Source: an uncultured Acidimicrobiia bacterium
GTDB taxonomy: Bacteria > Actinomycetota > Acidimicrobiia > Spongiisociales > JAOTWH01
Length of the DNA: 64,000 bases
Assembly (NCBI GenBank): GCA_964195995.1
Contig: CAXMQS010000074.1
Span: 6,066 to 70,065, forward strand
Reading direction: 5' to 3'
Under the pieces are notes generated by a model. It had not been told where the DNA came from. It did no database searches and saw nothing but the letters and a program-made list of their open reading frames with translations. This document shows, one piece after another, positions 1,598-62,738 of this stretch (positions within the stretch are counted from its first letter, which is position 1; each line of letters begins with the position of its first letter). The position numbers were made by a program, and so were the translations under genes.

Positions 1598-1647
1598 ACG
1601 CCTTCACACGGCAGAGGTCACAGGTTCGATCCCTGTGGCGCCCACCA
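1598..1647 (+). repeat. Orphan tRNA-Val(CAC) 3-prime half, copy 1 (anticodon arm, variable loop AGGTC, T-arm ACAGG-TTCGATC-CCTGT, acceptor GGCGCCC-A-CCA); no 5-prime half
   Basis: The loop TTCACAC (anticodon CAC) lies at 1603-1609. The T-stem is perfect and CCA is encoded. Only 3 of 5 anticodon-stem pairs are present. No GGGCGCC acceptor strand or D-arm is found in the 80 nt upstream. Confidence 0.6.
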
Positions 1648-1691: not shown

Positions 1692-2630
1692 CTACCGCTC
1701 AACCGCGATGACCGGTCGAACCAGCGCCGTAGCCCGCTCGGGAACTTCCGACGCGAAGACCAGCACCGAGAGACCGAGGATCACGAGCGCACTCTGGTAG
1801 GTGCTGTGCAATCCGATGCCTCCTACCACCAGCAACCCGATGCCGACTGCGGTAAGCCCATCACCGCTCTTGACGATCATCACGAGGGCGTAGGTCAGGG
1901 TTCCGGCAGCCATCGCATATGCGAGCGCCGGGAGGTAGCCAGCTAACCCGAAGTTCCAGAGGAGCACGATCTTGGCGGTGGCTGGGGCCAATACGAGGGT
2001 CATCATCACAGCCCCACTGACCGCAGCCCCCCATGCGACCGCAGCCCCAGACGTCATCCTGGTTCGGGAGTAGACCAGCGCCATTGGTGCCGCTAGGACC
2101 AGTGTCTCGGCAGCCACCAGGAGCCACGGCGAGGCTTCTACGGGCCGGAGACCGCGGGCGGCAGCCTGTTGGGCGACTACGTAGAGGCCGCCGAGCAGGA
2201 AGCCTCCGCCGAATAAGAACAATGCCGGTCGCAGGCGTCGATCTGCCGCTGCGCATCCGACTGCAACCAGGCCGAACGAGGCCACGACGGCGACGGCGAG
2301 CAGCAGATCGTCGATGGCTCCGGCTCGCGCCAGGAACGCCGCTCCGACGAACACCGCTAAGGCCGTCGCCACGGCATGGTGGCCATGTTGGAGTGCAGCC
2401 CGCATGGCAAGTCCCAGAGCGGTGATCACGAGCACAACGGCCAGGTAGTAGGCGAACCTGCCCGACTCGGCAGCAGCCCGGTACGGAACTGCTGCGCGGT
2501 CGATGCCGGGGATGTGGATGGCGACTCGGGTTGCGGTCCGGAGGATGACGAGTTCAAAGACAATGACCACCAGTGCGACTTGCACCAACCACGGCAGCAA
2601 TCCGTCGCGAGGGGTGGGGGAGACCGCCAC
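1692..2630 (-). CDS. Polytopic membrane protein (about 10 predicted TM helices), unknown function; last gene of the oxidoreductase operon
   Basis: This uses the frame of ORF 1692..2726. The GTG at 2630 shares one base with the TAG stop of the gamma gene (TAGTG). The sequence is almost entirely hydrophobic Ala/Leu/Val/Gly-rich helices, and I recognise no family motif. Confidence 0.65.
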   Translation of the reverse strand: MAVSPTPRDGLLPWLVQVALVVIVFELVILRTATRVAIHIPGIDRAAVPYRAAAESGRFAYYLAVVLVITALGLAMRAALQHGHHAVATALAVFVGAAFLARAGAIDDLLLAVAVVASFGLVAVGCAAADRRLRPALFLFGGGFLLGGLYVVAQQAAARGLRPVEASPWLLVAAETLVLAAPMALVYSRTRMTSGAAVAWGAAVSGAVMMTLVLAPATAKIVLLWNFGLAGYLPALAYAMAAGTLTYALVMIVKSGDGLTAVGIGLLVVGGIGLHSTYQSALVILGLSVLVFASEVPERATALVRPVIAVER

Positions 2631-3628
2631 TATTCGGCTTGGTCCTGCTTGGGTGGTCGGGCCGCCACCTCGATCACGATGGCCAGCACGGCCAGTGAGC
2701 CGACGATGACGAGCAACGCGGCCCATGGAGGTCCGGGCTCACCCGAACTTACCCCGAAGTCGGGCGGCGGCGCCGCTACCGGAGGAGGTGCTGCGACTGC
2801 TCCGACTTCCAGCTTCAGGAATCCCGACACGGACTTCAGACCGTCCCTCTCCTCTGCGCTGCCGTCCCAGATCGCGAATGCGACGTCGATTTCCTGACCG
2901 TCGGCGAAAGCTGGCTGATCGGATCCCGGCGCCTGGAAGGGTCTGGCAAATACCACCGACCATTCGGTTCCGTCATGAACGCCGCTGCCCATTACCGCTT
3001 GCTCGTCGGCCGGAGTCAGTGTCCCGAAGCCGCCGGCCACCAGGTTCTGCACGGGACCGGAGCCGACTGCATAGACGTTGCCTGCAGCCTTGGCTGGGTA
3101 GAAGAGGTCGTCGGTCGACGGGTAGAGGTCGACGTAGCCGTGATCAGTTGTGGGTAGATCGTCGATGCCGGCCTCACTGTCGGCTCGCCACTGCCAGATG
3201 TTCACTGCGGCATCGGCCTGGCCCATACATATGGCGGGAACCGACGATGCGGGCTCGGAGGGGAACTGGATGGCGGCGCCGTCGGCGAAGTCCTCGACGG
3301 CCGTGGTGCCAGAGTCCACTGTGGTGTCCGACCAAGCCATCCGGATGTACAACACGTTCTCGTGGTTGACGCTGCGTATTTCGGCGATCGGAACGTTGCC
3401 TCCGCCGAGCGGAAACGTCACCTCTTGTGCGGTGAAGGGAACGTCGACCGCGGGAGCCTCATCCCACACCGAGCTGGCCGGGTCAAGACCGGGGTTCTGA
3501 CTCGCGGTGACGGAGGCCACGACGATGGCCTGCGCTACCGCCGGGTTAGCGTCCGCTAGCCGGAGGCCAACCGCTACCAACATCGCCACAGTGAGCACCC
3601 CCCACCGCAGCGTGCGGCCCGCCATCAT
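2630..3628 (-). CDS. Type II DMSO-reductase-family gamma subunit (EB_dh/DOMON-like heme-b domain) with N-terminal signal peptide and C-terminal TM anchor
   Basis: This uses the frame of ORF 2630..3682. The ATG at 3628 forms an ATGA overlap with the chaperone stop. The signal peptide reads MMAGRTLRWGVLTVAMLVAVGL...A. Family-like motifs are FADGAAIQFP, ICMGQADAAVNIWQWRA and FAIWDGSAEERDGLKS. A Pro-rich linker (APPPVAAPPP) precedes the TM helix WAALLVIVGSLAVLAIVIEVAA. Confidence 0.8.
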   Translation of the reverse strand: MMAGRTLRWGVLTVAMLVAVGLRLADANPAVAQAIVVASVTASQNPGLDPASSVWDEAPAVDVPFTAQEVTFPLGGGNVPIAEIRSVNHENVLYIRMAWSDTTVDSGTTAVEDFADGAAIQFPSEPASSVPAICMGQADAAVNIWQWRADSEAGIDDLPTTDHGYVDLYPSTDDLFYPAKAAGNVYAVGSGPVQNLVAGGFGTLTPADEQAVMGSGVHDGTEWSVVFARPFQAPGSDQPAFADGQEIDVAFAIWDGSAEERDGLKSVSGFLKLEVGAVAAPPPVAAPPPDFGVSSGEPGPPWAALLVIVGSLAVLAIVIEVAARPPKQDQAE

Positions 3629-4382
3629 GGCGCTGGCCGCGGTGGCAGCGACGCCTCGATGGCGGCCAGGGACGGACCACACCCGCCCTCGCCGCAGTCG
3701 ATCTCCTCCACTGGCGTTTCCGGGAGTGGCTGGTTCACAGACTCGGCGGGTGTCACCTCAAGCCGGTCGATCTCGCTAGCTAGCCAGCTGCCAAGCAAGA
3801 CGGCCAATGCCCGATAGAAGGGATGTGGGGCGACCAGTTCCACCCGCCGGGCGAAGCCCGGAGCCCAGCAGCCCAGGTGGTCGGAAACGAATAGCGCTTG
3901 GGTGTGACGGCACTCGGCTACATGTTCTGGGCTGAGCCGATCGAGGGCGTAGGCCTCTTTGCGATGCAGGAAGCTCATGAACTCGAGTTCCGTCGTGATG
4001 TGGTCGGGCCGTTCCCGCGCCTCACCACCGACCCGCAGGCCGTGAGCCGCGTAGAAACCGGCCACGTCGGCCATGACGTCTGCCTGTTGAAAGACGTCCT
4101 CGCCGCGGTACGCGGTCTCGTAGCTCGGGCAATCCCGGGATTCCACCTGGGGGAACAGCAGGAGGTGAGCGCTACGCAGCTCATCGAGCGGGGCTCGGCC
4201 CGCGGCTACGGCCTGGCGGAACGAGTGGTCGATGTCGTCATCCTCGAACCCGACCGCGTCCAGCAAGCCGGGAGCAGCCCGGTCGCCCACCGGGTACCCA
4301 AAGCCTCGAGCGAGGAATTCGTATACAACCCCGCGGGCCGCTGCGTCTGAGGACTCCCACACTGCGGTCATGCCTTCGGTCG

Positions 4383-4386
<4 letters not shown>
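3625..4386 (-). CDS. TorD/NarJ/DmsD-family redox enzyme maturation chaperone (delta subunit)
   Basis: The 253-aa ORF is acidic and cytoplasmic. ...HLLLFPQVESRDCPSYETAYRG...DVAGFYAAHGL...PDHITTELEFMSFL... is typical of the TorD-like chaperones of Ser/Clr/Ddh/Ebd-type operons. ATGA overlaps occur at both ends. Confidence 0.8.
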
Positions 4387-5607
<1,221 letters not shown>

Positions 5608-5618
<11 letters not shown>

Positions 5619-5919
5619 CGCCTCCCGTTCCGTACACCTCGCCGAGCAGCCCGTCCACGAACGCTGCGCCCCGACGGTTGAGGATCCCGTTCGGCCCTGA
5701 GAACTGTGATGAGGTGAAAAGCGCACGGACCCGTTCGGCCGACCAGCCGGCCATGGCGTACTCCTCGATGAAGACCCGGGCCGTGGCTTCGTCCGCGGCC
5801 CGATCCGACGCCACTGGGTACTCGACCTCCACCAAGGCGAACGGATCGTCGGCCTCGAAGTCTTTGGAAGGCGCTGGTCTCAGCGGTATCGGGATGCGGC
5901 GGACAGCGCTATCAGTCAT
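5608..5919 (-). CDS. Small acidic cytoplasmic protein (103 aa) of unknown function inserted between the alpha and beta genes
   Basis: This uses the frame of ORF 5608..6018. The ATG at 5919 forms an ATGA overlap with the alpha stop, and its 3-prime end overlaps the beta start by 11 nt. Third-position GC is high throughout. It has no Cys, no TM helix and no signal peptide. Sequence: MTDSAVRRIPIPL...FIEEYAMAGWSAERVRALF... Confidence 0.6.
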
Positions 5920-8900
5920 GTCAAGGTTCCTTCGACGGTCACCAGGCCACCGGCCACGTAGATCTGCATCTTTTGGTCCTCGGCGCCTGGGCTCTGCCCG
6001 GTCGTGCCACCCTTCCACGGACCCTGCCCTTCGAGCCCGCCGTCCTCCGCCTTTGTGACCCGCACCAGGGTCTCCTTAGGGCAGGTGTTGATGGCGTGGT
6101 TGTCGACGTCGAAGCCGAAGATGAATCCCATTCCTCCGGCCTTCTTGTGGAACAGTCCGTCCGTCTGGTGCATCGGCGGCGCCCAACCCCGGGTGATGCT
6201 TTGCTGACTGCCGTGGCGGAAGCTGGCCTGGTAGCCGGTCTCGGCCAGCGCCCGGCCGTCGGGACGGGTCTGCTGGGCGCGTACGGTGCGCGGCGTCGAC
6301 TGATAGAAGGCGTGCTTCAGCATCGTCACGCCGTTCGGATAGGCCGGGTTGAAGGTCACCCGGGCCATGAGCCGGGCCACCTGATAGAACGGATCGTCCT
6401 CGCTCCATCCGATGTATGGCCGGTCGGCGGGGTTGGCGTCGATCCAGATGTAGTCGCCGTTAGCCAGACCAAGGCCTTGAGCGTCATCGGGAGTCATGTG
6501 GAGCTGGGCATCACCAACCCCTGGGAGGCGAGTGTCTTCCCGGTACGGATCGGAGAAGTTGGAGTTCCAAATCCAGTTCCAGTCGGTCACAGCCCACGAC
6601 GAGTGGACCGAGTGCCGGGACTTGGGTGTGAGGCAGAACAGGTTGAAGCCCTGTTCCCATAGCGGATTTGTTGTGGCCTTGACCTCGGCCCACGACATGG
6701 CAACGTTGCGGACCTGGCGGAGGTCGGCGTCGACGGCATCGAGGGGAATGCCGTACGACTGGGGCCGGATGAAGGGGCTCGTCGAGACGATCACGTTGGG
6801 CAGATAGGGGGTGGCCTCGACGGCCTCGCGATGGACGATGAGGTTCTCTCCGAACTCGATGGCCTCTGGGATGTCGACGTAGGAGTGCATGCGCCCGGTG
6901 TCGGTGTAGAAGGGAAGGCTGTCGTTCACCTGCTCCAGGAAGGGGATCCGGGGGTATGTCCGGTACTGCATAAGCGCGCCACCCGGCTCTCCGTACTTGC
7001 CGTCCATGATGTCGGCGACTGTGTAGCCAGCAGTCGTGAACGATCCCTCCAACACGCGGTCGAGGTAGACCTCGCTGCGCTCTTCGAAGGAGAACTTGAA
7101 GTAATCCTCGAACCGCGTGTCGCCTGTGACATTGGCCAGGGCTCTGGCGACTCCTGCGAAAATGGCCAGGTCATCGCGGCTATCGAACAGCGGATCGATG
7201 CCACCCTTCCAAATCTGGAGGAAGGGGTTGGAGCACGAGCCAACCATCTCGAGAGTCTGCTGTTCGAGCCAGCTGTTGGCGGGAAATATGACATCGGCGA
7301 ACTCGGCAGAGCCAGTCCATTCGATCTGCTGGTCAATTATCAGATCAACCTTGGGGTTCACGTTGCGAACCAGCTCGTAGCTCCACTTGGCCTGGTTGAT
7401 GAAGTTGGCGTTGTTGTACCAGATGACCTTGGTGGGACTGGAGAGGTGAGAGGTTCCAGTGAAGACCTTGCGCCCGGCCTCTGGCGTGTCGACGATCAGC
7501 GGGTGATCGCCTATTCCCCAATAGCTCGTTTCCTCTCCGTGAATGGTGTGACGCTGGTTGCCCGGCCCGTAACGATCGGTGTCCTCGAGGAGCGGATGGA
7601 AGGGGTCCTCGTTGACATAGCCGCCGACACCGGGCCCATGCCACGGCGCCGCGTGGAATATGCCGCCTTTGTAATTGCCGGCCCAGGTGCTGACCCCTGC
7701 GCCAGGAGCACCGATATTGCCGGTGAGCATCGCCACCAGGTAGACGGCTCGATTGTGCAGGGTTCCGTGGAAGTAGTGGTTGACGCCCTCGCCGACGTGA
7801 ATCGAAGCAGGCTTGATAGTCGCCAGGTCGGTGATGAGCTGCTCAATGAGGTTCAGCGGTGATCCTGTGATGTCGACCACAGTCGTCAGGTCGTAGTCGT
7901 TGAGATGCTCCCGATACATGGTGAATGCAGTAGCGACCTCCACTGTCGAACCATCGGCCAGGGTGACGTCGCCCCGGAAGTCGAGCTGAGGATCAATGCC
8001 GGCGGAATCAAGAGAGTCGCCGACGTCTTCTCTGGTGATGGCCTTCATCTCTCCGGTGGTTTCGTCGACGACGACCCGGTCACCGAGCTCTGCGTACTGC
8101 TCGGGTGTCATCGCCTGGATGGCGAAGCTGTAATCGTCGGCCCCCAGGCCGGGGGTGTAGTTGGGGAACATCTCGTCGGCACGGAGCCGCACCAACGTGT
8201 CGAGGCGTACCAACAGTGGCATGTCGGTGAACCGCTTCAGGAACTGCGCGTCATACAGGTTGCGGTCGATCAGCGCCTTGGCGACTCCGAGGAAGAGTGC
8301 CGTGTCGGATAGGCCCGCTCGGACTGGAATCCAGTAGTCCGACTTGGATGACTGCGGGCCGTACTCGGGAACGATCGACACCAGCTTGCCGCCCCGCTCC
8401 ATCACCTCGTGGAAGAAATGGCTCTCCGGCATCTTGTTTTCCACCAGGTTCTTTCCCACCTGGATGAGGAGGGCGCTGTTGCGAAGATCGTTGAAATCGA
8501 CGTCGGCCGTCTGCAGGCCGTGGACGAACGGGAAACCAGGGGCCTGGTCGCCTCGCCATGTGTATTCGGACCAATCGCGGGCGCCGACCGCCTCGTCTTC
8601 GCCGACGCCGCGTACCGCGGCATCGAGCAGCGACAGCGAGTTAGCGAAGCGGAAGAGGGCGAACTTGCCGGCGACGCCGTGAAGGGGCAGTGACGAGCCC
8701 AGCTTCATGGTGCGGACACCTGACTCCTCCCAGAACTCGAGCATCTCGGGCGGGTAGCCGTCCTCGTCGATGAGGCGCCGCCGCCCCTCCTCGCCGCTGT
8801 AGGTCTCGGCAACGGCCTGGAGCGCCCGGGCTACGTAGTCGTCCGCCTCATCCCAAGTGGCGCGGACGAAGTCGTCGTCTCCGCGGGCGTCGAAGCGGTA

Positions 8901-9377
8901 GGTCGTGCGAAGCTCCGGATTGTCCGAGAGCGACGGGAAGCCATCATCGGCCCAGGCCTTCCATCCCGCTCGCAGCATCGGCCCCTTGAGGCGGTACGGG
9001 CCGTAAACCCGACGGTGCAATGTGTAACCCTTGAGACAACCCCGCGGGTTCCATGCTGCCGTCGAGCGGTTGCCGTCCAGGTCGCCGTAGTTGTCGCCGT
9101 CGTAGTTCTGCTCGATGCGTACCACCACGCCGTTGCGGACCATGGCCCGCAGGCGGCACATGTGGGTGTCGTTGGGCGCACATATGAAGGTGAAGCTGTC
9201 GTCGTAGGCGTACTGGTCGCGGTAGATGCGCTCCCAGCCCCGGGTGGGGTATTCGAGGAGTGGGTTGTCGACGCCGACCGCAGCCTGCAGGAACGAGAGG
9301 TGGTGGGCTCCGATGTACCAGCCGGCAGCCGCACCACTCGAGAGCTTCAGGAACGTGCGGCGGCTGAGCTCCGGCAC
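5916..9377 (-). CDS. Tat-exported molybdopterin oxidoreductase, type II DMSO-reductase-family alpha subunit (NarG/NxrA-like), 1153 aa
   Basis: The GTG start follows a GAGGAGG RBS. A twin-arginine motif SRRTFLK lies at residues 5-11. The FS0 motif is C66-x3-D70-x3-C74...C114. WRGDQAP aligns with the NarG Mo-ligand Asp region, and PESHFFHEVMERGGKLVSIVPEY resembles NarG TPDAHFFTEVRYKGTKTVAVTPDY. Confidence 0.9.
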   Translation of the reverse strand: MPELSRRTFLKLSSGAAAGWYIGAHHLSFLQAAVGVDNPLLEYPTRGWERIYRDQYAYDDSFTFICAPNDTHMCRLRAMVRNGVVVRIEQNYDGDNYGDLDGNRSTAAWNPRGCLKGYTLHRRVYGPYRLKGPMLRAGWKAWADDGFPSLSDNPELRTTYRFDARGDDDFVRATWDEADDYVARALQAVAETYSGEEGRRRLIDEDGYPPEMLEFWEESGVRTMKLGSSLPLHGVAGKFALFRFANSLSLLDAAVRGVGEDEAVGARDWSEYTWRGDQAPGFPFVHGLQTADVDFNDLRNSALLIQVGKNLVENKMPESHFFHEVMERGGKLVSIVPEYGPQSSKSDYWIPVRAGLSDTALFLGVAKALIDRNLYDAQFLKRFTDMPLLVRLDTLVRLRADEMFPNYTPGLGADDYSFAIQAMTPEQYAELGDRVVVDETTGEMKAITREDVGDSLDSAGIDPQLDFRGDVTLADGSTVEVATAFTMYREHLNDYDLTTVVDITGSPLNLIEQLITDLATIKPASIHVGEGVNHYFHGTLHNRAVYLVAMLTGNIGAPGAGVSTWAGNYKGGIFHAAPWHGPGVGGYVNEDPFHPLLEDTDRYGPGNQRHTIHGEETSYWGIGDHPLIVDTPEAGRKVFTGTSHLSSPTKVIWYNNANFINQAKWSYELVRNVNPKVDLIIDQQIEWTGSAEFADVIFPANSWLEQQTLEMVGSCSNPFLQIWKGGIDPLFDSRDDLAIFAGVARALANVTGDTRFEDYFKFSFEERSEVYLDRVLEGSFTTAGYTVADIMDGKYGEPGGALMQYRTYPRIPFLEQVNDSLPFYTDTGRMHSYVDIPEAIEFGENLIVHREAVEATPYLPNVIVSTSPFIRPQSYGIPLDAVDADLRQVRNVAMSWAEVKATTNPLWEQGFNLFCLTPKSRHSVHSSWAVTDWNWIWNSNFSDPYREDTRLPGVGDAQLHMTPDDAQGLGLANGDYIWIDANPADRPYIGWSEDDPFYQVARLMARVTFNPAYPNGVTMLKHAFYQSTPRTVRAQQTRPDGRALAETGYQASFRHGSQQSITRGWAPPMHQTDGLFHKKAGGMGFIFGFDVDNHAINTCPKETLVRVTKAEDGGLEGQGPWKGGTTGQSPGAEDQKMQIYVAGGLVTVEGTLT

Positions 9378-9719
9378 AATTCCTCCTCACTGATGACAAC
9401 GCCTGCCGCATCTTCCCGATTTCGAGGCCCCGCGAGCTAGGGCCGAAAGACCCGGGTACCAGGAAACCCGCGTCGCCGGTTTCCGTGAAGGACGACTCCT
9501 CACTGCCGCGGCCAGTACAGCGATCTTCGTGAGGGGTGCTCTTCATGATGGCCGAACGGTCGCTACATCGAGCTGGTGGGTGCCGCCGCCTGAAGTGGCT
9601 CTCGATTGGACCTCAACACAACTGCCTTGCACGTATCGCTGTGTAGGAACCGGCCGGCACAGCACACACGCGCCATGGCCCCGGGCGTTCGCCCGAGGCC
9701 ACGGAAATCGCGGGAATGG

Positions 9720-10118
9720 CTAGGACCAGAACTCGTCCCAGGCGTACAGGTCGAAGAAGTTCTCCCTCCCGTAAGTGATCTTGCCGTCCTCGATCTCGAA
9801 AACGATGCAGCAAGTCACGTCGAGCTGCTTGCCGTTGCGCTCAGCTGTGTTGCGATGGATGCTCACTACACCTCCGTCATCGCTCTTCAGCACGTCTTGC
9901 AATAGCGCCTTGAAGCTTCCTCCCGTGTCCTCCAGGTACCGGCCGAGTTGGCCGAGAGTCGCCTCCTTGCCCTGATAGTCGCCTCCGATAGGGCTTCGAC
10001 CTGGCGTGTGCCACGAAACGTTGTCGTCGAAAATCTCCATCAGCGCTTCCACATCGGCCGTGTTGAAGGCCTCGTAGCCACGCCGTACGACTTCTGCGTT
10101 TTGCTCTGGTGTACTCAT
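9720..10118 (-). CDS. SnoaL-like / NTF2-fold (ketosteroid-isomerase-like) protein
   Basis: The 132-aa ORF has a strong AAAGGAGA RBS. NAEVVRRGYEAFNTADVEALMEIFDDNVSWHTPG... is the typical SnoaL_2-type N-terminus. Confidence 0.75.
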   Translation of the reverse strand: MSTPEQNAEVVRRGYEAFNTADVEALMEIFDDNVSWHTPGRSPIGGDYQGKEATLGQLGRYLEDTGGSFKALLQDVLKSDDGGVVSIHRNTAERNGKQLDVTCCIVFEIEDGKITYGRENFFDLYAWDEFWS

Positions 10119-10143
10119 ACTGACTATCTCCTTTGTTGTTCGA

Positions 10144-10155
10144 TGATCCGGATCA
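10144..10155. promoter_or_regulatory. Perfect 12-bp palindrome TGATCCGGATCA in the 49-bp divergent intergenic region (candidate operator)
   Basis: Read directly. It lies 12 nt upstream of the regulator ATG (10168) and 25 nt from the SnoaL-like ATG (10118). Confidence 0.35.
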
Positions 10156-10167
10156 GTACCGCGTCTA

Positions 10168-11766
10168 ATGTCTCACTTACCGGCCGCCGACGCATCGGGA
10201 GGTTCCCCTATTTCTGGCCAAACCCTTCGACTGGGTGAACTCGCCGCCACGTTTGCGCTTGCCCAGGACAATGCGTTCGGGCAGCCGCTCGAGTCGCAGC
10301 TGAGGTCATGCCTCCTGGCCGTGTGGATGTGCGATGAGGCGGGCTTCGACGTGGACCTACGTGACACTGTCTACTGGGTGGGTTTGCTGCGGTACATCGG
10401 GTGTACCGGCCACGCCCACGAGGTTGCCACCGTCTTCGGAGACGAGATCGCCATCCGCGCCCAGACGCTCATACACGACTCCGCCGATCCGAATGAGGTC
10501 ATGAGGGATGTGATCGCGTTCGCAACTGCCCCTCATCCTCCCGAGAAGCACGACGAGATCATCGAGGGGCTCCAGGCAGGAGCCCACGATTGGGCAGTCC
10601 ACAACTTCGCAACCGGATGCGAAGTGGGCGACATTCTGCTCGAGCGGCTTCACTTCGACGACGACGTGCGCAACGCCCTGGCATTCACTTTCGAGCGGTG
10701 GAACGGAAACGGGTTCCCAAACGGAGCCAAAGGTGAAGACATTCCGCTGCCGATGCGGATCGTGCACGTGAGCCACGACATGGAGGTGATCGGCCGCCGC
10801 TTCTCCCCAGGTGAAGCGCTCGCCGCTGTGCGCGATCGACGGGACCGCGCCTACGACCCCGACCTCGCGGACCTGTTCGCCACGCACGGAGCCGATTGGT
10901 TTGAGTTGCTCGACAAGCTCGAGCCATGGGACAGTGTGCTTGACGAAGAGCCGCAACCCCACCGCACCCTGGAGGACGCCGAACTCGACAGCGCTCTGCT
11001 GGTGGCGGCAGACTTCATCGACCTGAAATCACCATACATGGCGGGCCATAGTCGCCGTTGCGCGCAGCTTGGCGCCGACGCCGCCCGGCTGCTGGGCTTC
11101 AGCAAGGCGGAAGTGACCGACCTCGAGAGGGCCGCTCTCGTTCACGAGTTCGGCACCACCGCGATTCCGAACTCGATCTGGGACAAGCCGGGCCCGCTCA
11201 CCCGTGCCGAGCGCGATCGAGTCGAATTGCACCCATTGTTAACCGAGCAGATGTTGCGCCGGTCCACCGCCATGGAGGCTCTCAACCCAGTCGCGGCGTG
11301 CCACCACGAGAAGGCCAACGGGTCCGGCTACCACAAGGGTTGGCGAGCCGCTGACGTGGAGGCGGGGGCGCTGGTGTTGGAAGCCGCCGACATCTACGTC
11401 GGCCTGACCACGGACCGGGCCGATCGTTCCGCTAAGTCTGGGAGCGATGCCGCTGTCGAGCTCCGCAGGTTGGCAAGAGAGAGCTTGCTCGAGCACGATG
11501 CCACCGAGGCTGTTTTAGCGGCGGCCGGCCACGGTCAATCCGGCTCGAAACGTCGCAAGCGCCAGCACCCCGGTGGGCTCACGAATCGCGAGGTGGAGGT
11601 TCTGGTACTCGCCGCCCGCGGGCTCACCACCCAGCAGATCGCCGACCAACTCTTCATCTCGCCCAAGACCGCCGACCACCACATCCAGCACATCTACACA
11701 AAGATCGAGGTTTCGACCCGAGCCGCCGCCGCCCTATGGGCAATGCAAAACGGCGTGGTTAGCTGA
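10168..11766 (+). CDS. LuxR-family transcriptional regulator with N-terminal HD-type domains (degenerate HD-GYP)
   Basis: The C-terminus LTNREVEVLVLAARGLTTQQIADQLFISPKTADHHIQHIYTKI is a LuxR/GerE HTH. Upstream are VHEFGTTAIP...ERDRVELHP...CHHEKANGSGYHKG (an HD-GYP-like domain with HE for HD and GYH for GYP) and a further HD-like domain (LLRYIGCTGHAHE...IHDSADP). Confidence 0.8.
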   Translation: MSHLPAADASGGSPISGQTLRLGELAATFALAQDNAFGQPLESQLRSCLLAVWMCDEAGFDVDLRDTVYWVGLLRYIGCTGHAHEVATVFGDEIAIRAQTLIHDSADPNEVMRDVIAFATAPHPPEKHDEIIEGLQAGAHDWAVHNFATGCEVGDILLERLHFDDDVRNALAFTFERWNGNGFPNGAKGEDIPLPMRIVHVSHDMEVIGRRFSPGEALAAVRDRRDRAYDPDLADLFATHGADWFELLDKLEPWDSVLDEEPQPHRTLEDAELDSALLVAADFIDLKSPYMAGHSRRCAQLGADAARLLGFSKAEVTDLERAALVHEFGTTAIPNSIWDKPGPLTRAERDRVELHPLLTEQMLRRSTAMEALNPVAACHHEKANGSGYHKGWRAADVEAGALVLEAADIYVGLTTDRADRSAKSGSDAAVELRRLARESLLEHDATEAVLAAAGHGQSGSKRRKRQHPGGLTNREVEVLVLAARGLTTQQIADQLFISPKTADHHIQHIYTKIEVSTRAAAALWAMQNGVVS

Positions 11767-12108: not shown

Positions 12109-14004
12109 GTGAGTGACTCCCCGTTCGCGGCCATCTATCGCAGATCGCTGGATGACGCTGAGGGCTTCTGGGGAGCTGCCGCGGACGAGATCGATTGGGC
12201 CAGGCAGTGGGACGCGGTCCTCGACAGGTCGGCAACGCCTGCGGCACGATGGTTCGTCGGTGGCGAGTTGAACACCTGTCACAACGCTCTCGATCGTCAT
12301 GTTGAGAATGGTCGGGCTGAGCAAGCAGCACTGATCTACGACAGCGCCGTAACCGGAGACATCCGGGTCTACAGCTACCGGGAGCTACGTGACGAGGTGG
12401 CTCTCTTTGCCGGCGTGCTGAGCCGCAATGGGGTCGTTCGCGGAGACCGTGTCGTCATTTATATGCCGATGATCCCGCAAGCGGTCATCGCCATGCTGGC
12501 TTGCGCCCGGCTTGGCGCGGTTCACTCCGTTGTATTCGGCGGGTTCGCATCCAAGGAGCTCGCCACCCGGATTGATGACTGCGAGCCAAAGGTGGTCGTA
12601 TCTGCCTCGTGTGGGATCGAGGTCGATCGGATCATCGAATACAAGCCGCTGCTCGACGCCGCACTCGAGATGACGGCGAACCAACCCGTTTGTGTCGTGT
12701 ATCAGCGCGAGATGTTGACGGCGGACATGCAACCCGACCGCGATCGCGATTGGGACGACGAGATGGCTCTCGCAGCACCACACGACTGCGTTCCGGTGCT
12801 CGCTACCGATCCGCTTTACATCCTCTACACGTCCGGCACAACCGGTCAGCCCAAAGGGATCATCCGCGACAACGGAGGCCACGCGGTTGCACTGAAGTGG
12901 ACGATGAAGAACGTCTACGACGTCAGTCCGGGAGAGGTCTACTGGGCTGCTTCGGACGTCGGCTGGGTGGTTGGGCACTCCTACATCGTGTACGGGCCGC
13001 TTCTTCACGGCTGTACAACCGTGTTGTACGAGGGCAAACCGGTCGGCACGCCCGACGCAGGTGCTTTCTGGCGGGTCATCGCGCAACATCAAGTCGCGAG
13101 CATGTTCACCGCGCCCACTGCAATTCGAGCCATCCGGCAGCAAGATCCCGACGGAGGACTGATCCCCCAGTATGACCTGAGTGAGTTCCGCTCACTCTTC
13201 CTCGCCGGAGAGCGATGCGATCCTGACACGCTGTTGTGGGCGGAGAGTCATCTAGGGGTTCCCGTAATTGACCACTGGTGGCAAACCGAAACGGGATGGG
13301 CCATTGCTACGAGTTGCCTGGGCATGGAAGTGCCCACCGTGGTGCCGGGGTCACCGGGCCGACCTGCTCCAGGATGGGACCTGGTCGTGATGGGAATCGA
13401 CGGGAAAGAAGTCAGGGCCGGCGAGGTCGGTGCACTGTGCGCCCGGCTGCCCATGCCCCCGTCGTCACTCCCTACCTTGTGGAACGCAGATGAGCGGTTC
13501 GTCGACACATACCTGTCGGGCTACCCGGGATTCTATGAGACAGCAGATGCCGGCTTCATCGACGACGACGGGTATGTCCACGTCATGGCTCGTACCGATG
13601 ACATCATCAACGTGGCGGGACATAGGCTCTCCACAGGAGCGCTCGAGGAGGTTCTCACTTCTCATCCCGACGTCGCCGAATGTGCGGTGGTCGGCGTCTC
13701 CGATCAGCTCAAGGGCCAGGTCCCCGTCGGATTCCTGGTGCTCAAGGTGGGTGCCGACGGCGAGGAAGACGAGGTCGTGAGCGACGTCGTCGCATCGGTC
13801 CGCGAGAGGATCGGCCCCGTGGCGTCCTTCAAGTCTGCCGTCGTGGTCGATCGGCTTCCCAAAACCCGATCAGGCAAGATCTTGCGTGGCACCATCGCTC
13901 GCATTGCTGATGACGCGCCATGGACTGTGCCGGCAACGGTCGACGATCCAGTAATCCTCGACGAGATCACAGCGGCCCTCTCGACGATTGGGTATCCCCG
14001 ATGA
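12109..14004 (+). CDS. prpE: Propionate--CoA ligase (short-chain acyl-CoA synthetase, PrpE type)
   Basis: The 631-aa ORF is collinear with remembered E. coli PrpE. Shared segments include WFVGGELNTCHNALDRH, SVVFGGFAS, ILYTSGTTGQPKG, ASDVGWVVGHSYIVYGPL, VIDHWWQTETGW, RTDDIINVAGHRLST and LPKTRSGKILR. Confidence 0.85.
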   Translation: MSDSPFAAIYRRSLDDAEGFWGAAADEIDWARQWDAVLDRSATPAARWFVGGELNTCHNALDRHVENGRAEQAALIYDSAVTGDIRVYSYRELRDEVALFAGVLSRNGVVRGDRVVIYMPMIPQAVIAMLACARLGAVHSVVFGGFASKELATRIDDCEPKVVVSASCGIEVDRIIEYKPLLDAALEMTANQPVCVVYQREMLTADMQPDRDRDWDDEMALAAPHDCVPVLATDPLYILYTSGTTGQPKGIIRDNGGHAVALKWTMKNVYDVSPGEVYWAASDVGWVVGHSYIVYGPLLHGCTTVLYEGKPVGTPDAGAFWRVIAQHQVASMFTAPTAIRAIRQQDPDGGLIPQYDLSEFRSLFLAGERCDPDTLLWAESHLGVPVIDHWWQTETGWAIATSCLGMEVPTVVPGSPGRPAPGWDLVVMGIDGKEVRAGEVGALCARLPMPPSSLPTLWNADERFVDTYLSGYPGFYETADAGFIDDDGYVHVMARTDDIINVAGHRLSTGALEEVLTSHPDVAECAVVGVSDQLKGQVPVGFLVLKVGADGEEDEVVSDVVASVRERIGPVASFKSAVVVDRLPKTRSGKILRGTIARIADDAPWTVPATVDDPVILDEITAALSTIGYPR

Positions 14005-15737: not shown

Positions 15738-16304
15738 TTAGTCGCCTCGTCCCAACAGCCGCTTGAAGAACTTGCCTATCCAGCTCAACAGGCCGCTGAG
15801 GAAGAGAGAGAGGCCCTTTACGTCTCCGGCTTCAATGGCGTCAGCTTCCTCGACGGTCTCCGCCGACATCTTGGCCTCTAGGCACTCCACGAATTCGTTG
15901 ATGAGTCGCTTGGTGATCTCTTCGACCAGACCGCTTCGTCCGAACTGGGCGATGGCTCCCGACAGTGATATGTCGGCGTCCACCGTCACCGAGGACCCAC
16001 TGTCGATGGCCGTCACCGCATAGTCGACCTCTACCTGACCGCGGTTGCCGCCACTGCGGTCGACGCCCTTTCCCGCGATGTGGCCCCTCCGAGCTGCGTT
16101 GTCGCGGGTCACCGTGGCGTCACCCTCGAATTTGGCAGCCATCGGACCCAGCTTGATTTGGACGGAACCTTCGTAGGTACCGTCGCCATGGTCAGCAATG
16201 AGCTCAGCGCCGGGGAGGCACTGTGTGACCGATGGAACATCAGCGAACGCGGTCCACACGGCATCGACTGGCCGCTTTACCTCGAACGTGTTACTCAATC
16301 GCAC
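15738..16304 (-). CDS. coxG: CoxG-like SRPBCC-family protein
   Basis: The gene has a GTG start. The N-terminus (M)RLSNTFEVKRPVDAVWTAFADVPSVTQCLPGAEL...YEGSVQIKLGPMAAKFEG is typical of carbon-monoxide-dehydrogenase subunit G family proteins. The C-terminal tail is amphipathic. Confidence 0.8.
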   Translation of the reverse strand: MRLSNTFEVKRPVDAVWTAFADVPSVTQCLPGAELIADHGDGTYEGSVQIKLGPMAAKFEGDATVTRDNAARRGHIAGKGVDRSGGNRGQVEVDYAVTAIDSGSSVTVDADISLSGAIAQFGRSGLVEEITKRLINEFVECLEAKMSAETVEEADAIEAGDVKGLSLFLSGLLSWIGKFFKRLLGRGD

Positions 16305-16362
16305 CGTTGGCCCCTTCGTGATCTCGACGATAACGACCCGTTGGAGGTGACGGTGTGACGGC

Positions 16363-17031
16363 CTAGGCCTGCGCCAGCAGCAGGTCGGTTACGCGCTCGA
16401 AGTCCGGTCCAGTGATGTCCGGCTGTGGGAACAGCGGGTTACGCACCATGCCGGGCCGCATGATGTAGGCACCACGGCAGCCGACGCTCATGGCACCGGC
16501 AACATCCCAATCGTGGGCCGCCACCATGGTCATTGCCGACGGCTCAACTCCCAGCTCGGCTGCTGCCATGAGGTACACCGCGGGGGCTGGCTTGAAGTGG
16601 GCCGTCGGAGTGACAGACATGATCCGTTCGAAGTAGTGGGCGATCCTGGCGCTTGTGAGCTGGTTTTCGGCCGCCTCTTGCGGGGAGTTCGTGAGGGCGG
16701 CCATCCGAAACCCCGCGTTCTCGAGCCGATCCAGGTTGGTAGCGACGTCTTCGTGAGCAGGCAGGCTGGTCATCGCCGCAGCCATGGCGGCCAGGTCGTC
16801 AGCAGTCAATGACACCTGGTGCTGCTCCGCCATCATTTGTAGCGAGGCTGTACCGACGGAAACGAAATCCTGGTGTTCCCCGATGATCGTCAAGCTGAGC
16901 GCGTTGCGCAGTACCAAGCCGAACCACTGCCGGCGCACACCGACATCGCCAAACATACGCTGGAAGAGCGGATCGAGCGCCCGCAGGTCGAGCAGCGTTT
17001 CGTTAACGTCGAATACCAGCACACCGGCCAC
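16363..17031 (-). CDS. HAD-superfamily hydrolase, type II haloacid-dehalogenase-like
   Basis: The GTG start follows an AAGGAG RBS. HAD motif I is VFDVNETLLDL, followed by ...ALTNS... and ...AAHDWDVAGA.... Confidence 0.75.
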   Translation of the reverse strand: MAGVLVFDVNETLLDLRALDPLFQRMFGDVGVRRQWFGLVLRNALSLTIIGEHQDFVSVGTASLQMMAEQHQVSLTADDLAAMAAAMTSLPAHEDVATNLDRLENAGFRMAALTNSPQEAAENQLTSARIAHYFERIMSVTPTAHFKPAPAVYLMAAAELGVEPSAMTMVAAHDWDVAGAMSVGCRGAYIMRPGMVRNPLFPQPDITGPDFERVTDLLLAQA

Positions 17032-17256
17032 TGTCGCTCCTTGATAACCGATCCCACGCTAGAGCAACGGTGGGGGACCCGCCGGCTTCTCGCACCCAGG
17101 GAGCAGGGTGGCTAGTGTCGACCAAGGACCCCTGGGAGGCGACGATGGCACAACCCACTGTTTGTGTTGCCCCCTTCGACTTCGTTGTCACCGTCCCCCG
17201 CTCTCCCCCGTAGACCGCCGCCAGCATCTGCAATCGAGTCATCAGAGAGGAGAGGC

Positions 17257-17805
17257 GTGGAAGTATCTATCAAGGTCAATGGCAAGAGTTACGAGCGTGA
17301 TATCGAGGCGCGCACGTTCCTGGTCGACTTCATTCGGGAGGATCTCGGTCTAACTGGCACCAACGTGGGATGTGATACCACACAGTGCGGTTCGTGCACA
17401 GTCCATATGAATGGGGCGGCCGTCAAGTCATGCACGGTGCTAGCAGTGCAGGCCGACGGTGCCTCGATCGCGACTATCGAAAGCTTGGCGAGCGACGGCG
17501 AGTTGCACGCCATGCAGCAAGCGTTCACCGATAAGCACGGGTTGCAGTGCGGCTTCTGCACGCCCGGGATGATCATGACTGCTGTCAAGCTGGTCGAGTC
17601 TCATCCGGACATCTCCGAAGACGACATCCGGCACGGACTCGAAGGCAACCTATGCCGCTGCACCGGATATGAGAACGTTGTGCGGGCCGTGGCTGAGGGG
17701 GCCCGCCAGTTCGACCCTCATAGTCCCTGGGAGATGGAACCGGCCGAGCACAAGATCACTCTTCGAGAGGCCGAGCGACGCGCTCGGGAGAGGAGCGGAG
17801 CATGA
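17257..17805 (+). CDS. coxS: (2Fe-2S)-binding small subunit of a xanthine-dehydrogenase/CODH-family molybdo-hydroxylase (CoxS-like)
   Basis: The GTG at 17257 follows GAGAGGAGAGG and is in frame with ORF 17164. Motifs are [16 protein letters not shown] and [11 protein letters not shown]...CRCTGY. Confidence 0.88.
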
Positions 17806-21037: not shown

Positions 21038-21107
21038 TCGGGATCGCATCAAGCTGGGCGGGCAACCGCTCGGCTGGACGCGCGACTCCGATTAGGTTGC
21101 GGGTGCA

Positions 21108-23140: not shown

Positions 23141-23469
23141 AGGACGCTCTCGAGACGTACGCGCGGTGGAAATCTGAAGGGAAGGATGTGGCGGTAGCCA
23201 CCGTTGTCCGCGTCCAGGGCTCGGCGCCGCGCCCCGAAGGCGCCAAGTTCCTCGTTTCGTCGGCGGGCGATATGGAGGGCTCAGTGTCGGGCGGCTGTGT
23301 TGAGAACGACGTGTTCCTGCATGCCCAGCAGGTCATTGAAGCCGGCGAACCTCGTCTCGTCACGTACGGGATCGCCGATGGTGAGGCATTCGAGGTTGGT
23401 CTGGCCTGCGGCGGAACGATCCAGGTGCTGATCGAACAGTGGTGGCGGAAGCGATCGAGAGGCTGGTAG
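23137..23469 (+). CDS. XdhC/CoxI-family accessory protein, N-terminal domain only (110 aa)
   Basis: An ATGA overlap joins it to cox[21 protein letters not shown]...[12 protein letters not shown]...[13 protein letters not shown] matches the XdhC_CoxI domain. It overlaps the next XdhC ORF by 31 nt in a different frame. Confidence 0.7.
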
Positions 23470-45353: not shown

Positions 45354-45377
45354 AATCAGCTGACAAGAAGGAGAACT

Positions 45378-62530: not shown

Positions 62531-62540
62531 CCTCGGCGCC

Positions 62541-62738
62541 ATGCTTCTGCGATTGCGTTGGATGAGCTTGGGGATGATCTTGGCGCTGTGCGGCAGCGCC
62601 ATTGTCGTTACTCGAATGGTGAGGATGAGGGAGCGCTTCACGCCAGCGAACCTCAGGCGTGTCGCCGCCTCGACAAGCGCTGATGGTCTGGACTGGGCAG
62701 CGGGTCGCCTGCGAGGGAGCACTACGCCCCAGGGCTAA
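62541..62738 (+). CDS. Possible small membrane protein (65 aa)
   Basis: This is an internal ATG of ORF 62454..62738. There is one TM helix (WMSLGMILALCGSAIVV). Codon usage is weaker than in neighbouring genes, and I recognise no family. Confidence 0.3.
   Translation: MLLRLRWMSLGMILALCGSAIVVTRMVRMRERFTPANLRRVAASTSADGLDWAAGRLRGSTTPQG

What the first reader, a model, noticed from the sequence alone, without database searches (positions are those of the whole stretch)
1692..9377. Six-gene, fully translationally coupled operon for a Tat-exported NarG/NxrA-like type II DMSO-reductase-family enzyme
Seen in the sequence:
- Six minus-strand genes (alpha 1153 aa, 103-aa ORF, beta, TorD-like chaperone, gamma, polytopic membrane protein) are joined by ATGA, an 11-nt overlap, ATGA, ATGA and TAGTG junctions. 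They must be made as one unit.
- Alpha has a perfect SRRTFLK Tat motif, beta has no signal peptide, and gamma has its own signal peptide. The active site therefore faces outward.

Established:
- This ABDC architecture defines the type II DMSOR group (Ebd, Ser, Clr, Pcr, Ddh, pNar, periplasmic Nxr).

Inference:
- The alpha length, its NarG-like collinearity and the Asp-containing FS0 motif (reported separately) point toward the periplasmic nitrite-oxidoreductase/nitrate-reductase lineage rather than the hydrocarbon or oxyanion clades.
- I am not aware of that lineage being described in this kind of actinobacterial backbone.
- Two of the six genes have no counterpart in the canonical operons.
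Basis: partly seen in the sequence, partly recalled or inferred. Interest (0 to 1): 0.8.

Follow-up and report, generated by a model that had tools for sequence, protein, structure and literature searches.

The report
Outward-facing NXR-type nitrite/nitrate oxidoreductase operon
An Acidimicrobiia (Gram-positive) chromosome carries a complete six-gene operon for an outward-facing molybdenum enzyme of the same lineage as the nitrite oxidoreductase of anammox bacteria. The operon also holds two conserved proteins of unknown function, it is widespread in public genomes, and whether it makes or consumes nitrate is untested.

Summary
Six minus-strand genes (1692-9377) overlap at every junction.

**What the genes encode**
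- Alpha matches Kuenenia NxrA end to end (1498 bits, 56% identity; the next best hit, PcrA, scores 188 bits).
- Alpha keeps the Tat motif, the 3Cys/1Asp FS0 ligands, the substrate Asn and the Mo-ligand Asp.
- Beta matches NxrB (586 bits) and gamma matches NxrC, with its Met/Lys haem ligands kept.
- The hydrocarbon and oxyanion clades are therefore excluded.

**Host and distribution**
- The host is Acidimicrobiia.
- The enzyme is not rare: 503 GTDB species genomes encode relatives.
- The same six-gene cassette is in all 44 Acidimicrobiia/Chloroflexota-clade loci whose DNA extends past the operon.
- Papers lump it under "narGHI" or call such genes "nxr-like, function unknown".

**The two extra genes**
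- Both are real and belong to orphan families.
- The small, presumably cytoplasmic protein lies between alpha and beta in 79 of 83 loci, including Methylomirabilis.
- The membrane protein (about 10 TM helices, AF2 pLDDT 91) has no Pfam or PDB match and occurs only in the Acidimicrobiia/Chloroflexota clade.

**Working hypothesis (inference)**
- The complex is anchored on the outer face of the membrane and wired to the respiratory chain through the new membrane subunit.
- It most likely reduces nitrate with menaquinol.
- Nitrite oxidation is the main rival.

I rate it a new variant of a known kind, of moderate interest.

The parts
9378..9719 (-). Upstream intergenic region: presumed promoter and leader of the operon
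   Evidence: A 342-nt gene-free gap lies between the alpha start and the upstream SnoaL-like gene. The consensus scan found no sigma-70-like promoter and Rfam found no family, so no Moco riboswitch. The role is presumed, not shown.
9273..9377 (-). Twin-arginine (Tat) signal peptide of alpha (about residues 1-35, SRRTFLK)
   Evidence: Read directly from the sequence. It aligns with the Kuenenia NxrA signal region. Pfam TAT_signal scores 17.3 bits, below its 22.7 cut-off.
5916..9377 (-). Alpha (NxrA-type) catalytic Mo-bisMGD subunit, 1153 aa
   Evidence: It scores 1498.8 bits over residues 3-1149 against 7B04_B, with 56% identity over 953 columns. C66/D70/C74/C114, N69 and D277 correspond to Kuenenia C67/D71/C75/C115 (FS0), N70 (substrate) and D275 (Mo ligand). 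The mapping rests and on PMC8387239.
5608..5919 (-). Small conserved protein, 103 aa, no signal peptide; orphan family ('NxrX-like', my label)
   Evidence: A profile HMM finds it between alpha and beta in 79 of 83 loci (alignment A2). It is also present in Methylomirabilis (hhalign probability 99.7%). It has no Pfam hit and no PDB sequence hit. It is not TorD-like (probability 0.5%). The single-sequence AF2 model has pLDDT 72 and no Foldseek match.
4383..5618 (-). Beta (NxrB-type) Fe-S subunit, 410-411 aa, no signal peptide
   Evidence: It scores 585.9 bits against 7B04_A. Pfam Fer4_11 and TIGR03478 are the best family hits. Four Cys groups are present, including CRGYRKCVQACP. I read that motif from general knowledge as 3Fe-4S-type, by analogy with NarH. 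The public annotation starts at 5615.
3625..4386 (-). Delta: TorD/NarJ-family assembly chaperone, 253 aa
   Evidence: PF02613 scores 76 bits against a cut-off of 22.2. TIGR03482 is the best NCBIfam hit at 81 bits, below its cut-off of 152.
2630..3628 (-). Gamma (NxrC-type) haem b subunit: Sec signal, EB_dh domain, Pro-rich linker and C-terminal TM anchor
   Evidence: PF09459 scores 100.8 bits and 7B04_C scores 96 bits. M135 and K265 align with the Kuenenia NxrC haem ligands M155 and K305 (PMC8387239). A C-terminal hydrophobic helix is present in all clade members.
1692..2630 (-). Polytopic membrane protein, 312 aa, about 10 TM helices; orphan family restricted to the Acidimicrobiia/Chloroflexota clade
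   Evidence: It is present in 44 of 44 non-truncated loci of that clade and in none of the 31 loci of the other clades. All 65 database homologues that carry a name are called 'hypothetical'. It has no Pfam hit. The AF2 model has pLDDT 90.8 and pTM 0.88, and the best Foldseek PDB match has E 0.096 and TM 0.2. The conserved residues E26, R31, R35, H39, R58, R102, E175, W225, Y278 and Q279 map to the predicted outer face.

Best explanation
**What it is**
The operon encodes a complete, membrane-anchored, outward-facing nitrite/nitrate oxidoreductase of the NXR lineage. This is the lineage of the anammox enzyme and, according to the literature, of the Nitrospira and Nitrospina enzymes.

**Assembly and export (inferred by analogy with characterised family members)**
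- Alpha receives Mo-bisMGD and the FS0 cluster in the cytoplasm, helped by the TorD-like delta and probably by the small orphan protein.
- Alpha is then exported folded by the Tat system, with the signal-less beta riding along.
- Gamma is exported separately by Sec. It carries a Met/Lys-ligated haem b and stays tethered by its C-terminal transmembrane helix.

**Electron path**
Mo - FS0 - four Fe-S clusters in beta - haem b in gamma.

**Link to the respiratory chain (inference)**
The clade-specific membrane protein of about 10 TM helices docks the complex. It connects haem b to the membrane redox pool through the conserved polar cluster on its outer face.

**Direction of catalysis (inference)**
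In these heterotrophic, menaquinone-based, single-membrane (monoderm) hosts, the main physiological direction is menaquinol-driven nitrate reduction to nitrite outside the cell. It would be a 'Gram-positive pNar' built from an NXR scaffold. The enzyme is intrinsically reversible.

**Sub-confidences**
- Identity as an NXR-lineage complex facing outward: about 0.95.
- The membrane protein is the redox or anchoring partner: about 0.4.
- Nitrate reduction is the main direction: about 0.55.
For: **Shown here**
- Full-length homology of alpha, beta and gamma to Kuenenia NXR-ABC.
- All cofactor and substrate ligands are conserved.
- Signal logic: a Tat motif on alpha, no signal on beta, a Sec signal plus a C-terminal TM helix on gamma.
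- Delta is a member of PF02613.
- Placement in the tree has bootstrap 100 with Kuenenia NxrA.
- The six-gene cassette is self-contained and sits in unrelated genomic neighbourhoods. No cytochrome c or oxidase gene is linked to it.
- The membrane protein co-occurs strictly with this clade, 44 of 44 loci against 0 of 31. It is joined to gamma by an overlapping TAGTG junction. Its conserved charged and polar residues lie on the predicted outer face.
- In the other clades gamma is instead fused to cytochrome c domains, as in Methylomirabilis, or lacks this partner.

**From papers**
- Kuenenia NXR catalyses both directions (PMC8387239).
- The E0' of nitrate/nitrite is +430 mV (PMC3578206).
- UBA5794 Acidimicrobiia are described as heterotrophs with 'narGHI' (PMC12008989).

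**From general knowledge**
- Actinobacteria use low-potential menaquinone and typically lack soluble cytochrome c.
- Direct electron flow from nitrite to quinone is therefore strongly uphill, whereas flow from quinol to nitrate is downhill.
Against: - Every biochemically or physiologically characterised member of this enzyme superclade works as a nitrite oxidase in vivo.
- The Asp-ligated FS0 and the Met/Lys haem b are the same as in NXR.
- An outward-facing site is energetically best for oxidation, because protons are then released outside.
- The membrane protein has no recognisable quinone or haem motif. It has only one near-invariant His. It shows no similarity to NarI, NrfD/PsrC or any other solved membrane subunit, so its redox role is pure inference.
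- No sequence from Nitrospira or Nitrospina could be included in the tree.
- No physiological, expression or whole-genome data (carbon fixation, terminal oxidases) were available.
Confidence: 0.55

Rival explanations
1. The enzyme works physiologically as a nitrite oxidase. These Acidimicrobiia and Chloroflexota would then be overlooked facultative (litho-heterotrophic or mixotrophic) nitrite oxidisers. Electrons would pass from haem b, via the anchored gamma and the membrane protein, to the high-potential end of the chain (QcrC/aa3 oxidase).
For: - The closest characterised relative is a true NXR, and the NXR-specific cofactor ligation is kept.
- The outward orientation favours proton release during oxidation.
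- Many source MAGs come from oxic, nitrifying settings such as sand filters, groundwater and oxic sediments (record titles).
- Non-autotrophic nitrite oxidation has been proposed for similar nxr-like genes (PMC9306079).
Against: - No cytochrome c, cupredoxin or oxidase gene is linked to the cassette in four independent contexts.
- The hosts look heterotrophic, and no carbon-fixation gene lies in the 64-kb window.
- The enzyme clade is spread over hundreds of heterotrophic species, which is unusual for a specialised lithotrophy.
Confidence: 0.3
2. The 10-TM protein is not an electron-transfer subunit. It is a nitrite/nitrate (anion) transporter or channel that is co-expressed with the enzyme.
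For: - Four invariant Arg and two invariant Glu lie in or near the membrane.
- In Methylomirabilis, the gene after the gamma subunit is an HPP-family membrane protein. From general knowledge, that family is implicated in nitrite transport.
Against: - An outward-facing enzyme needs no substrate transport.
- There is no similarity to NarK/MFS, FNT, HPP or any solved transporter.
- The overlapping TAGTG junction with gamma (inferred translational coupling) and the strict co-occurrence suggest a stoichiometric partner.
Confidence: 0.2
3. The 10-TM protein, the small ORF, or both are maturation factors only. Examples would be delivery of haem b to the Sec-exported gamma on the outside of a single-membrane cell, or proofreading of Tat export. 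They would be absent from the mature complex.
For: - Purified Kuenenia NXR contains only the A, B and C subunits, plus NXR-T in the tubules (PMC8387239).
- The small ORF has no signal peptide.
- The delta chaperone overlaps its neighbours by ATGA in the same way, so start/stop overlap does not prove a structural role.
Against: - It is not known whether Kuenenia encodes the small ORF.
- There is no similarity to known haem exporters or chaperones.
Confidence: 0.15
4. The enzyme acts on another oxyanion or substrate, such as chlorate, perchlorate, selenate or a hydrocarbon.
For: NCBIfam's best-scoring models are the generic type II DMSOR models.
Against: - PcrA and EbdA score 8-11 times lower than NxrA.
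- The substrate-coordinating Asn is conserved; it is Ile in EbdA (PMC8387239).
- All ligands match NXR.
Confidence: 0.04

Closest known systems
Kuenenia stuttgartiensis NXR-ABC (PDB 7B04; Chicano et al. 2021, PMC8387239)
   Same: - Alpha, beta and gamma are all homologous over their full length (56% identity for alpha).
- Shared features: the Tat signal, 3Cys/1Asp FS0, Asn substrate ligand, Asp Mo ligand and Met/Lys haem b.
   Different: - The Kuenenia enzyme is soluble, forms tubules with NXR-T inside the anammoxosome, and sits in a 15-gene cluster with cytochromes c.
- Here gamma carries a C-terminal TM anchor. There are no cytochrome c genes and no NXR-T, and a novel 10-TM protein is present.
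Periplasmic NXR of Nitrospira and Nitrospina
   Same: Same enzyme superclade according to the literature (about 60% identity to Kuenenia NxrA, PMC8387239). Outward-facing, and some NxrC candidates have one TM helix (PMC3578206).
   Different: - In Nitrospina the nxr operon holds nxrA, nxrB and nxrC, and the TorD-like chaperone gene lies next to a separate nxrC copy (PMC3578206).
- No extra small gene or 10-TM membrane gene is described in the papers I read.
- The hosts are autotrophic NOB with dedicated cytochromes and bd-like oxidases.
- I had no sequences, so I made no direct comparison.
NC10 (Methylomirabilis) 'NarG/Nxr-like' operon and nxr-like genes of heterotroph MAGs (PMC9306079; bioRxiv 10.1101/2020.05.19.103440)
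   Same: - It is the sister clade in my tree (bootstrap 90) at 62% identity.
- It has the same small ORF between alpha and beta.
- Its function is equally unresolved.
   Different: Gamma is fused to two cytochrome c domains and is followed by an HPP-family membrane protein. The 10-TM protein is absent.
Archaeal outward-facing Nar (pNar of Haloferax and Pyrobaculum; from general knowledge)
   Same: A Tat-exported NarG-like enzyme that faces outward from a single membrane and works as a respiratory nitrate reductase. It is the functional analogue of my preferred reading.
   Different: It belongs to a different NarG clade and uses different membrane partners (a cytochrome b/Rieske-type module). 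It is not related to the 10-TM protein found here.
Type II DMSO-reductase enzymes Ebd, Ser, Clr, Pcr and Ddh
   Same: ABDC-type gene set, Tat-exported alpha, EB_dh haem b gamma and TorD-like delta.
   Different: They are only distant homologues (188 bits or less for alpha). FS0 has a His ligand in EBDH (PMC8387239). Their gamma subunit is soluble (PMC3578206). The curated TIGRFAM cut-offs are not reached.

Membership tests
Periplasmic NXR lineage (anammox / Nitrospira / Nitrospina type) | Full-length NxrA homology at about the level seen among recognised members (about 60% identity) | tested here: met
   1498.8 bits over residues 3-1149 against 7B04_B. 56% identity over 953 columns. PMC8387239 gives about 60% identity between Kuenenia and the NOB NxrA proteins.
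Periplasmic NXR lineage (anammox / Nitrospira / Nitrospina type) | Twin-arginine signal on alpha, none on beta | tested here: met
   SRRTFLK at residues 5-11. Beta starts M(M)AEVHNW with no hydrophobic leader.
Periplasmic NXR lineage (anammox / Nitrospira / Nitrospina type) | FS0 ligated by 3 Cys and 1 Asp; Asn substrate ligand; Asp Mo ligand | tested here: met
   C66/D70/C74/C114, N69 and D277 align with Kuenenia C67/D71/C75/C115, N70 and D275. All are invariant in alignment A1.
Periplasmic NXR lineage (anammox / Nitrospira / Nitrospina type) | NxrB-type Fe-S subunit and EB_dh haem b gamma with Met/Lys ligands | tested here: met
   Beta scores 585.9 bits against 7B04_A. Gamma M135 and K265 align with M155 and K305.
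Periplasmic NXR lineage (anammox / Nitrospira / Nitrospina type) | Groups with recognised NxrA in a phylogeny | tested here: inconclusive
   In the NJ tree the window groups with Kuenenia NxrA at bootstrap 100 against the SAR202 and Gaiellaceae-type relatives and more distant ones. The window's clade is sister to the Kuenenia group, not inside it. No Nitrospira or Nitrospina sequences were available, and no ML tree was made.
Periplasmic NXR lineage (anammox / Nitrospira / Nitrospina type) | Nitrite-oxidising activity in vivo | not testable with these tools
   Needs physiology or biochemistry.
Type II DMSOR subunit models of NCBIfam/TIGRFAM (TIGR03479/03478/03482/03477) | Score at or above the curated cut-off | tested here: not met
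   These are the best-scoring models, but all fall below their cut-offs: alpha 311 against 984.75, beta 270 against 480.7, delta 81 against 152.3, gamma 165.7 against 169.85.
Cytoplasmic membrane-bound NarGHI / Nitrobacter-type NXR | NarG equivalog score, cytoplasmic orientation and a NarI di-haem b anchor | tested here: not met
   TIGR01580 scores 140 against 1084 and narH scores 176 against 524. A Tat signal is present. No NarI (PF02665) was found in the operon.
Known quinol-interacting membrane anchors (NarI, NrfD/PsrC, DmsC), tested on the 10-TM protein | Sequence or fold similarity | tested here: not met
   None of 34 members hits Pfam consistently at E up to 1. The best Foldseek PDB match has E 0.096 and TM 0.2, for a model with pLDDT 90.8.
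TorD/NarJ chaperone family (PF02613) | Pfam gathering score (delta); profile similarity (small ORF) | tested here: met
   Delta scores 76.1 bits against a cut-off of 22.2, so the feature is met for delta. The small ORF is not a member: hhalign probability 0.5% against the delta alignment.

The most novel reading that the evidence does not exclude
The orphan 10-TM protein is a previously unknown type of respiratory membrane module. It would wire an NXR-type enzyme on the outside of single-membrane bacteria to the electron-transport chain. This would make Acidimicrobiia and Chloroflexota a large, overlooked guild. They would be either heterotrophic or mixotrophic nitrite oxidisers, or users of a new 'Gram-positive pNar' that is currently mis-counted as NarGHI in nitrogen-cycle surveys. 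The small cytoplasmic protein would then be a new, clade-wide NXR assembly factor, shared with NC10 and possibly with anammox bacteria.
Probability: 0.3. Interest if true: 0.8.

Novelty: new variant of a known kind. Interest (0 to 1): 0.55.

Why it matters
- Gene-centric nitrogen-cycle surveys lump this enzyme with NarG (KEGG K00370), or count it as NxrA by identity cut-offs. For a cassette present in hundreds of species, that means opposite fluxes could be assigned to the same gene.
- Knowing its direction in abundant sediment, groundwater, sand-filter and wastewater Acidimicrobiia and Chloroflexota would change estimates of who produces and who consumes nitrate.
- The two orphan proteins are concrete handles:
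  - a near-universal small factor that may be needed to assemble NXR-type enzymes, which matters for heterologous expression of NXR;
  - a confidently modelled membrane protein with no match in the PDB, which may show how bacteria lacking a periplasm and soluble cytochrome c connect an external molybdoenzyme to respiration.

Tried and rejected
- The look-up of encoding contigs on the window's own alpha: not on record.
- The search for homologous proteins with the small ORF alone found only a 99%-identical copy, because of the word prefilter. I recovered the family by tblastn and a profile HMM on the fetched loci instead.
- The supplementary NxrA alignment of PMC8387239 is held only as error-ridden OCR text. 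I did not use it for a tree. As a result, Nitrospira and Nitrospina references are missing.
- The 50%-identity representative search collapsed the whole NXR superclade into one unnamed representative, P0198. It yielded only outgroups (SAR202, Gaiellaceae, Thermincola, Halorussus and others).
- Small ORF as a truncated TorD/NarJ paralogue: rejected (hhalign probability 0.5%).
- Small ORF against PDB sequences: only spurious phlebovirus nucleoprotein hits, E 0.007 or higher. Foldseek gave nothing.
- Membrane protein as NarI, NrfD or another known anchor or transporter: rejected at both the Pfam and the fold level.
- Moco riboswitch or any other Rfam family in the leader: none in the whole window.
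- Promoter and terminator scan: uninformative.
- Literature searches for an explicit description of an Acidimicrobiia NXR found none. They found only lumped 'narGHI' and 'nxr-like' in other phyla.

Full report
**1. Observation**

The region 1692-9377 holds six consecutive minus-strand genes.

| Gene | Coordinates | Size | Note |
|---|---|---|---|
| alpha | 5916-9377 | 1153 aa | GTG start after GAGGAGGA; begins MPELSRRTFLK |
| small ORF | 5608-5919 | 103 aa | no signal peptide |
| beta | 4383-5618 (or 5615) | 411 or 410 aa | no signal peptide |
| delta | 3625-4386 | 253 aa | |
| gamma | 2630-3628 | 332 aa | Sec signal |
| membrane protein | 1692-2630 | 312 aa | GTG start |

- The public annotation starts beta at the second ATG. 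The overlap there may therefore be 8 nt rather than 11 nt.
- The same order and the same overlaps recur in independent genomes. The arrangement is not chance.

**2. What the enzyme is**

Searches against solved structures give these scores.

| Subunit | Kuenenia NXR | Next best hits |
|---|---|---|
| alpha | NxrA 7B04_B, 1498.8 bits, residues 3-1149 | PcrA 188.6, EbdA 133.9, NarG 106.8 |
| beta | NxrB, 585.9 bits | PcrB 218.6, EbdB 208.7, NarH 168.5 |
| gamma | NxrC, 96.2 bits | EbdC 45.1 |

- Identity to Kuenenia NxrA is 56% over 953 columns. The structure paper reports about 60% between Kuenenia and the Nitrospira/Nitrospina enzymes, about 40% to Nitrotoga and about 20% to NarG and EbdA (PMC8387239).
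- Every residue that paper singles out is conserved:
  - FS0 ligands C66/D70/C74/C114, matching Kuenenia C67/D71/C75/C115;
  - the substrate Asn69, matching N70;
  - the Mo ligand Asp277, matching D275;
  - in gamma, the haem b ligands Met135 and Lys265, matching M155 and K305.
- Delta is a PF02613 TorD/NarJ chaperone.
- NCBIfam ranks the type II DMSOR models first, but all four subunits score below the curated cut-offs. This fits a clade outside the Ebd/Ser/Clr/Pcr/Ddh set.
- Orientation follows from the signals. Alpha has a Tat motif, beta has no leader, and gamma has a Sec signal. Gamma also has a Pro-rich linker and a C-terminal TM helix followed by basic residues.

**3. Host and distribution**

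- The window is core chromosome. It holds the ruvB-tgt-secDF-relA-hisS-aspS cluster, EF-G, ThrRS, Lhr and MMPL.
- Its EF-G and citrate synthase fall in 90%-identity clusters named 'Acidimicrobiia bacterium'.
- The alpha protein has more than 100 database clusters at 70-82% identity. Most come from Acidimicrobiia MAGs.
- A scan of one genome per GTDB species found 503 species encoding relatives that carry the motifs [IV]CAPNDTH or EYTWRGDQ.
- The 80 best loci fall into two groups:
  - a 68-79% identity group of Acidimicrobiia, other Actinomycetota and Chloroflexota;
  - a 61-64% identity group of Proteobacteria, Acidobacteriota, Binatia, Elusimicrobia, Methylomirabilis and Planctomycetota.
- My NJ tree used 1135 columns and 100 bootstraps.
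  - The Acidimicrobiia/Chloroflexota clade has bootstrap 100.
  - It joins the second group at bootstrap 90.
  - Kuenenia NxrA is sister to both, at bootstrap 100 against the SAR202- and Gaiellaceae-type relatives (45% and 42% identity).
- I had no Nitrospira or Nitrospina sequences, so the fine branching order remains open.

**4. The two extra genes**

*Small ORF*
- A profile HMM finds it in 79 of 83 loci, always between alpha and beta.
- It is also present in Methylomirabilis (hhalign probability 99.7%) and in L056, the locus closest to the Kuenenia group.
- Its conserved core reads DPxELVGV…ARCxVEEYAxxGW…LFxxPxY…RG.
- It has no signal peptide, no Pfam family and no PDB sequence match. It is unrelated to the TorD-like delta.
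- A single-sequence AF2 model (pLDDT 72) has no Foldseek match.
- Purified Kuenenia NXR contains only the A, B and C subunits (PMC8387239). I therefore infer a cytoplasmic assembly or export factor.

*Membrane protein*
- It occurs in all 44 non-truncated loci of the Acidimicrobiia/Chloroflexota clade and in none of the 31 others. In two Dehalococcoidia loci it lies upstream of alpha.
- Every one of its 65 database homologues that carries a name is labelled 'hypothetical', and there is no Pfam hit.
- The AF2 model is confident (pLDDT 90.8, pTM 0.88), yet the best PDB match has E 0.096 and TM 0.2.
- Loop charge statistics favour an N-in/C-in topology with about 10 TM helices. The conserved polar residues (E26, R31, R35, H39, R58, R102, E175, W225/N226, Y278/Q279) then lie on the outer face, where NxrABC sits.

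**5. How it most likely works**

*Shown*
- The locus encodes an NXR-lineage alpha-beta-gamma complex with all cofactor ligands.
- The active site faces outward.
- Gamma carries a membrane tether.

*Inferred*
- The cassette is self-contained. It sits in unrelated neighbourhoods: purine genes, tatAC plus modABC, and mobB. It carries no cytochrome c, cupredoxin or oxidase gene.
- In the sister clades, by contrast, gamma is fused to cytochrome c domains.
- The only cassette-encoded candidate to link haem b to the respiratory chain is therefore the 10-TM protein.
- From general knowledge, Actinobacteria use menaquinone (about -74 mV) and typically lack soluble cytochrome c. Electron flow from nitrite (+430 mV, PMC3578206) to quinone is strongly uphill, and flow from quinol to nitrate is downhill.
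- The hosts also look heterotrophic, and a paper on UBA5794 Acidimicrobiia reads 'narGHI' genes, probably this operon, as nitrate respiration (PMC12008989).

*My estimates*
- Menaquinol-driven nitrate reduction outside the cell is the main direction: about 0.55.
- Nitrite oxidation feeding the high-potential end of the chain is the serious rival: about 0.3. It is backed by the fact that all characterised relatives are nitrite oxidases.
- The membrane protein could instead be an anion transporter or a maturation factor.

**6. Comparison with what is known, and novelty**

- The enzyme core is a clear member of the NXR-type lineage, so it is not new in kind.
- 'nxr-like' genes in non-NOB MAGs have been noted with unknown function (PMC9306079; bioRxiv 10.1101/2020.05.19.103440).
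- I found no paper describing the Acidimicrobiia enzyme as NXR-type, nor either accessory family.
- The anchored gamma plus the orphan 10-TM partner, and the clade-wide small protein, make this a new variant of a known kind.
- Interest is moderate (0.55). The finding is widespread and ecologically relevant, and it opens testable questions. But the general phenomenon is known, and the mechanism offered here is inference.

Noticed in passing
window 1601-1647 (+): A 47-nt piece looks like the 3' half of a tRNA (T-arm GGTTCGATCCCTG plus acceptor end GCGCCCACCA) and lies about 45 nt downstream of the operon's last stop codon. ARAGORN and Rfam find no complete tRNA anywhere in the 64 kb, and the piece is unique in the window. 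It may be the att-site remnant of an integrated element to the left, which runs off the window.
   Followed up: partly
window 15738-24233: A cluster for a CoxL/xanthine-dehydrogenase-family molybdoenzyme: CoxG (15738-16304), the large MoCo subunit (17802-20168), a CoxD-like AAA protein (21108-21989), a CoxE-like VWA protein (21986-23140) and XdhC (23439-24233). I could not tell whether it is a true CO dehydrogenase, and I did not look for the medium and small subunits.
   Followed up: no
window 10168-11766 (+): A regulator with two HD_5 (HD-GYP-like) regions and a C-terminal LuxR/GerE HTH. It is transcribed in the opposite direction to the SnoaL-like gene (9720-10118) that lies upstream of the operon. 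It is not conserved next to the cassette in other genomes.
   Followed up: partly
L073 (Methylomirabilis sp.) 7319-10194: In the NC10 version of the operon, the gamma subunit is a 604-aa fusion of two cytochrome c domains with the EB_dh haem b domain. It is followed by an HPP-family membrane protein (PF04982). From general knowledge, that family is implicated in nitrite transport.
   Followed up: partly
L016, L040 (record titles): Two contigs carrying the Acidimicrobiia-type six-gene cassette (75-79% identity, with the membrane gene) are binned as 'Kiloniellaceae' and 'Gammaproteobacteria' MAGs. L040 sits directly beside L001, an Acidimicrobiia contig, on very short branches in the alpha tree. 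This is probably mis-binning rather than transfer.
   Followed up: no
L057 16583-18235: In a Burkholderiales locus, the gene after gamma encodes a radical-SAM/SPASM protein with a PCP_red domain. It may be a maturase specific to the proteobacterial sub-clade.
   Followed up: no
window 24431-25279, 44223-45863, 61277-62722: Three sizeable ORFs with high GC3 (282, 546 and 481 aa) have no Pfam family at E up to 1e-5.
   Followed up: no
L034 (bacterium UCB2) 13450-13512: This is the one member of the Acidimicrobiia/Chloroflexota clade in which beta follows alpha after about 60 nt with no small ORF between them. The contig ends soon after, so I could not tell whether the gene lies elsewhere.
   Followed up: no
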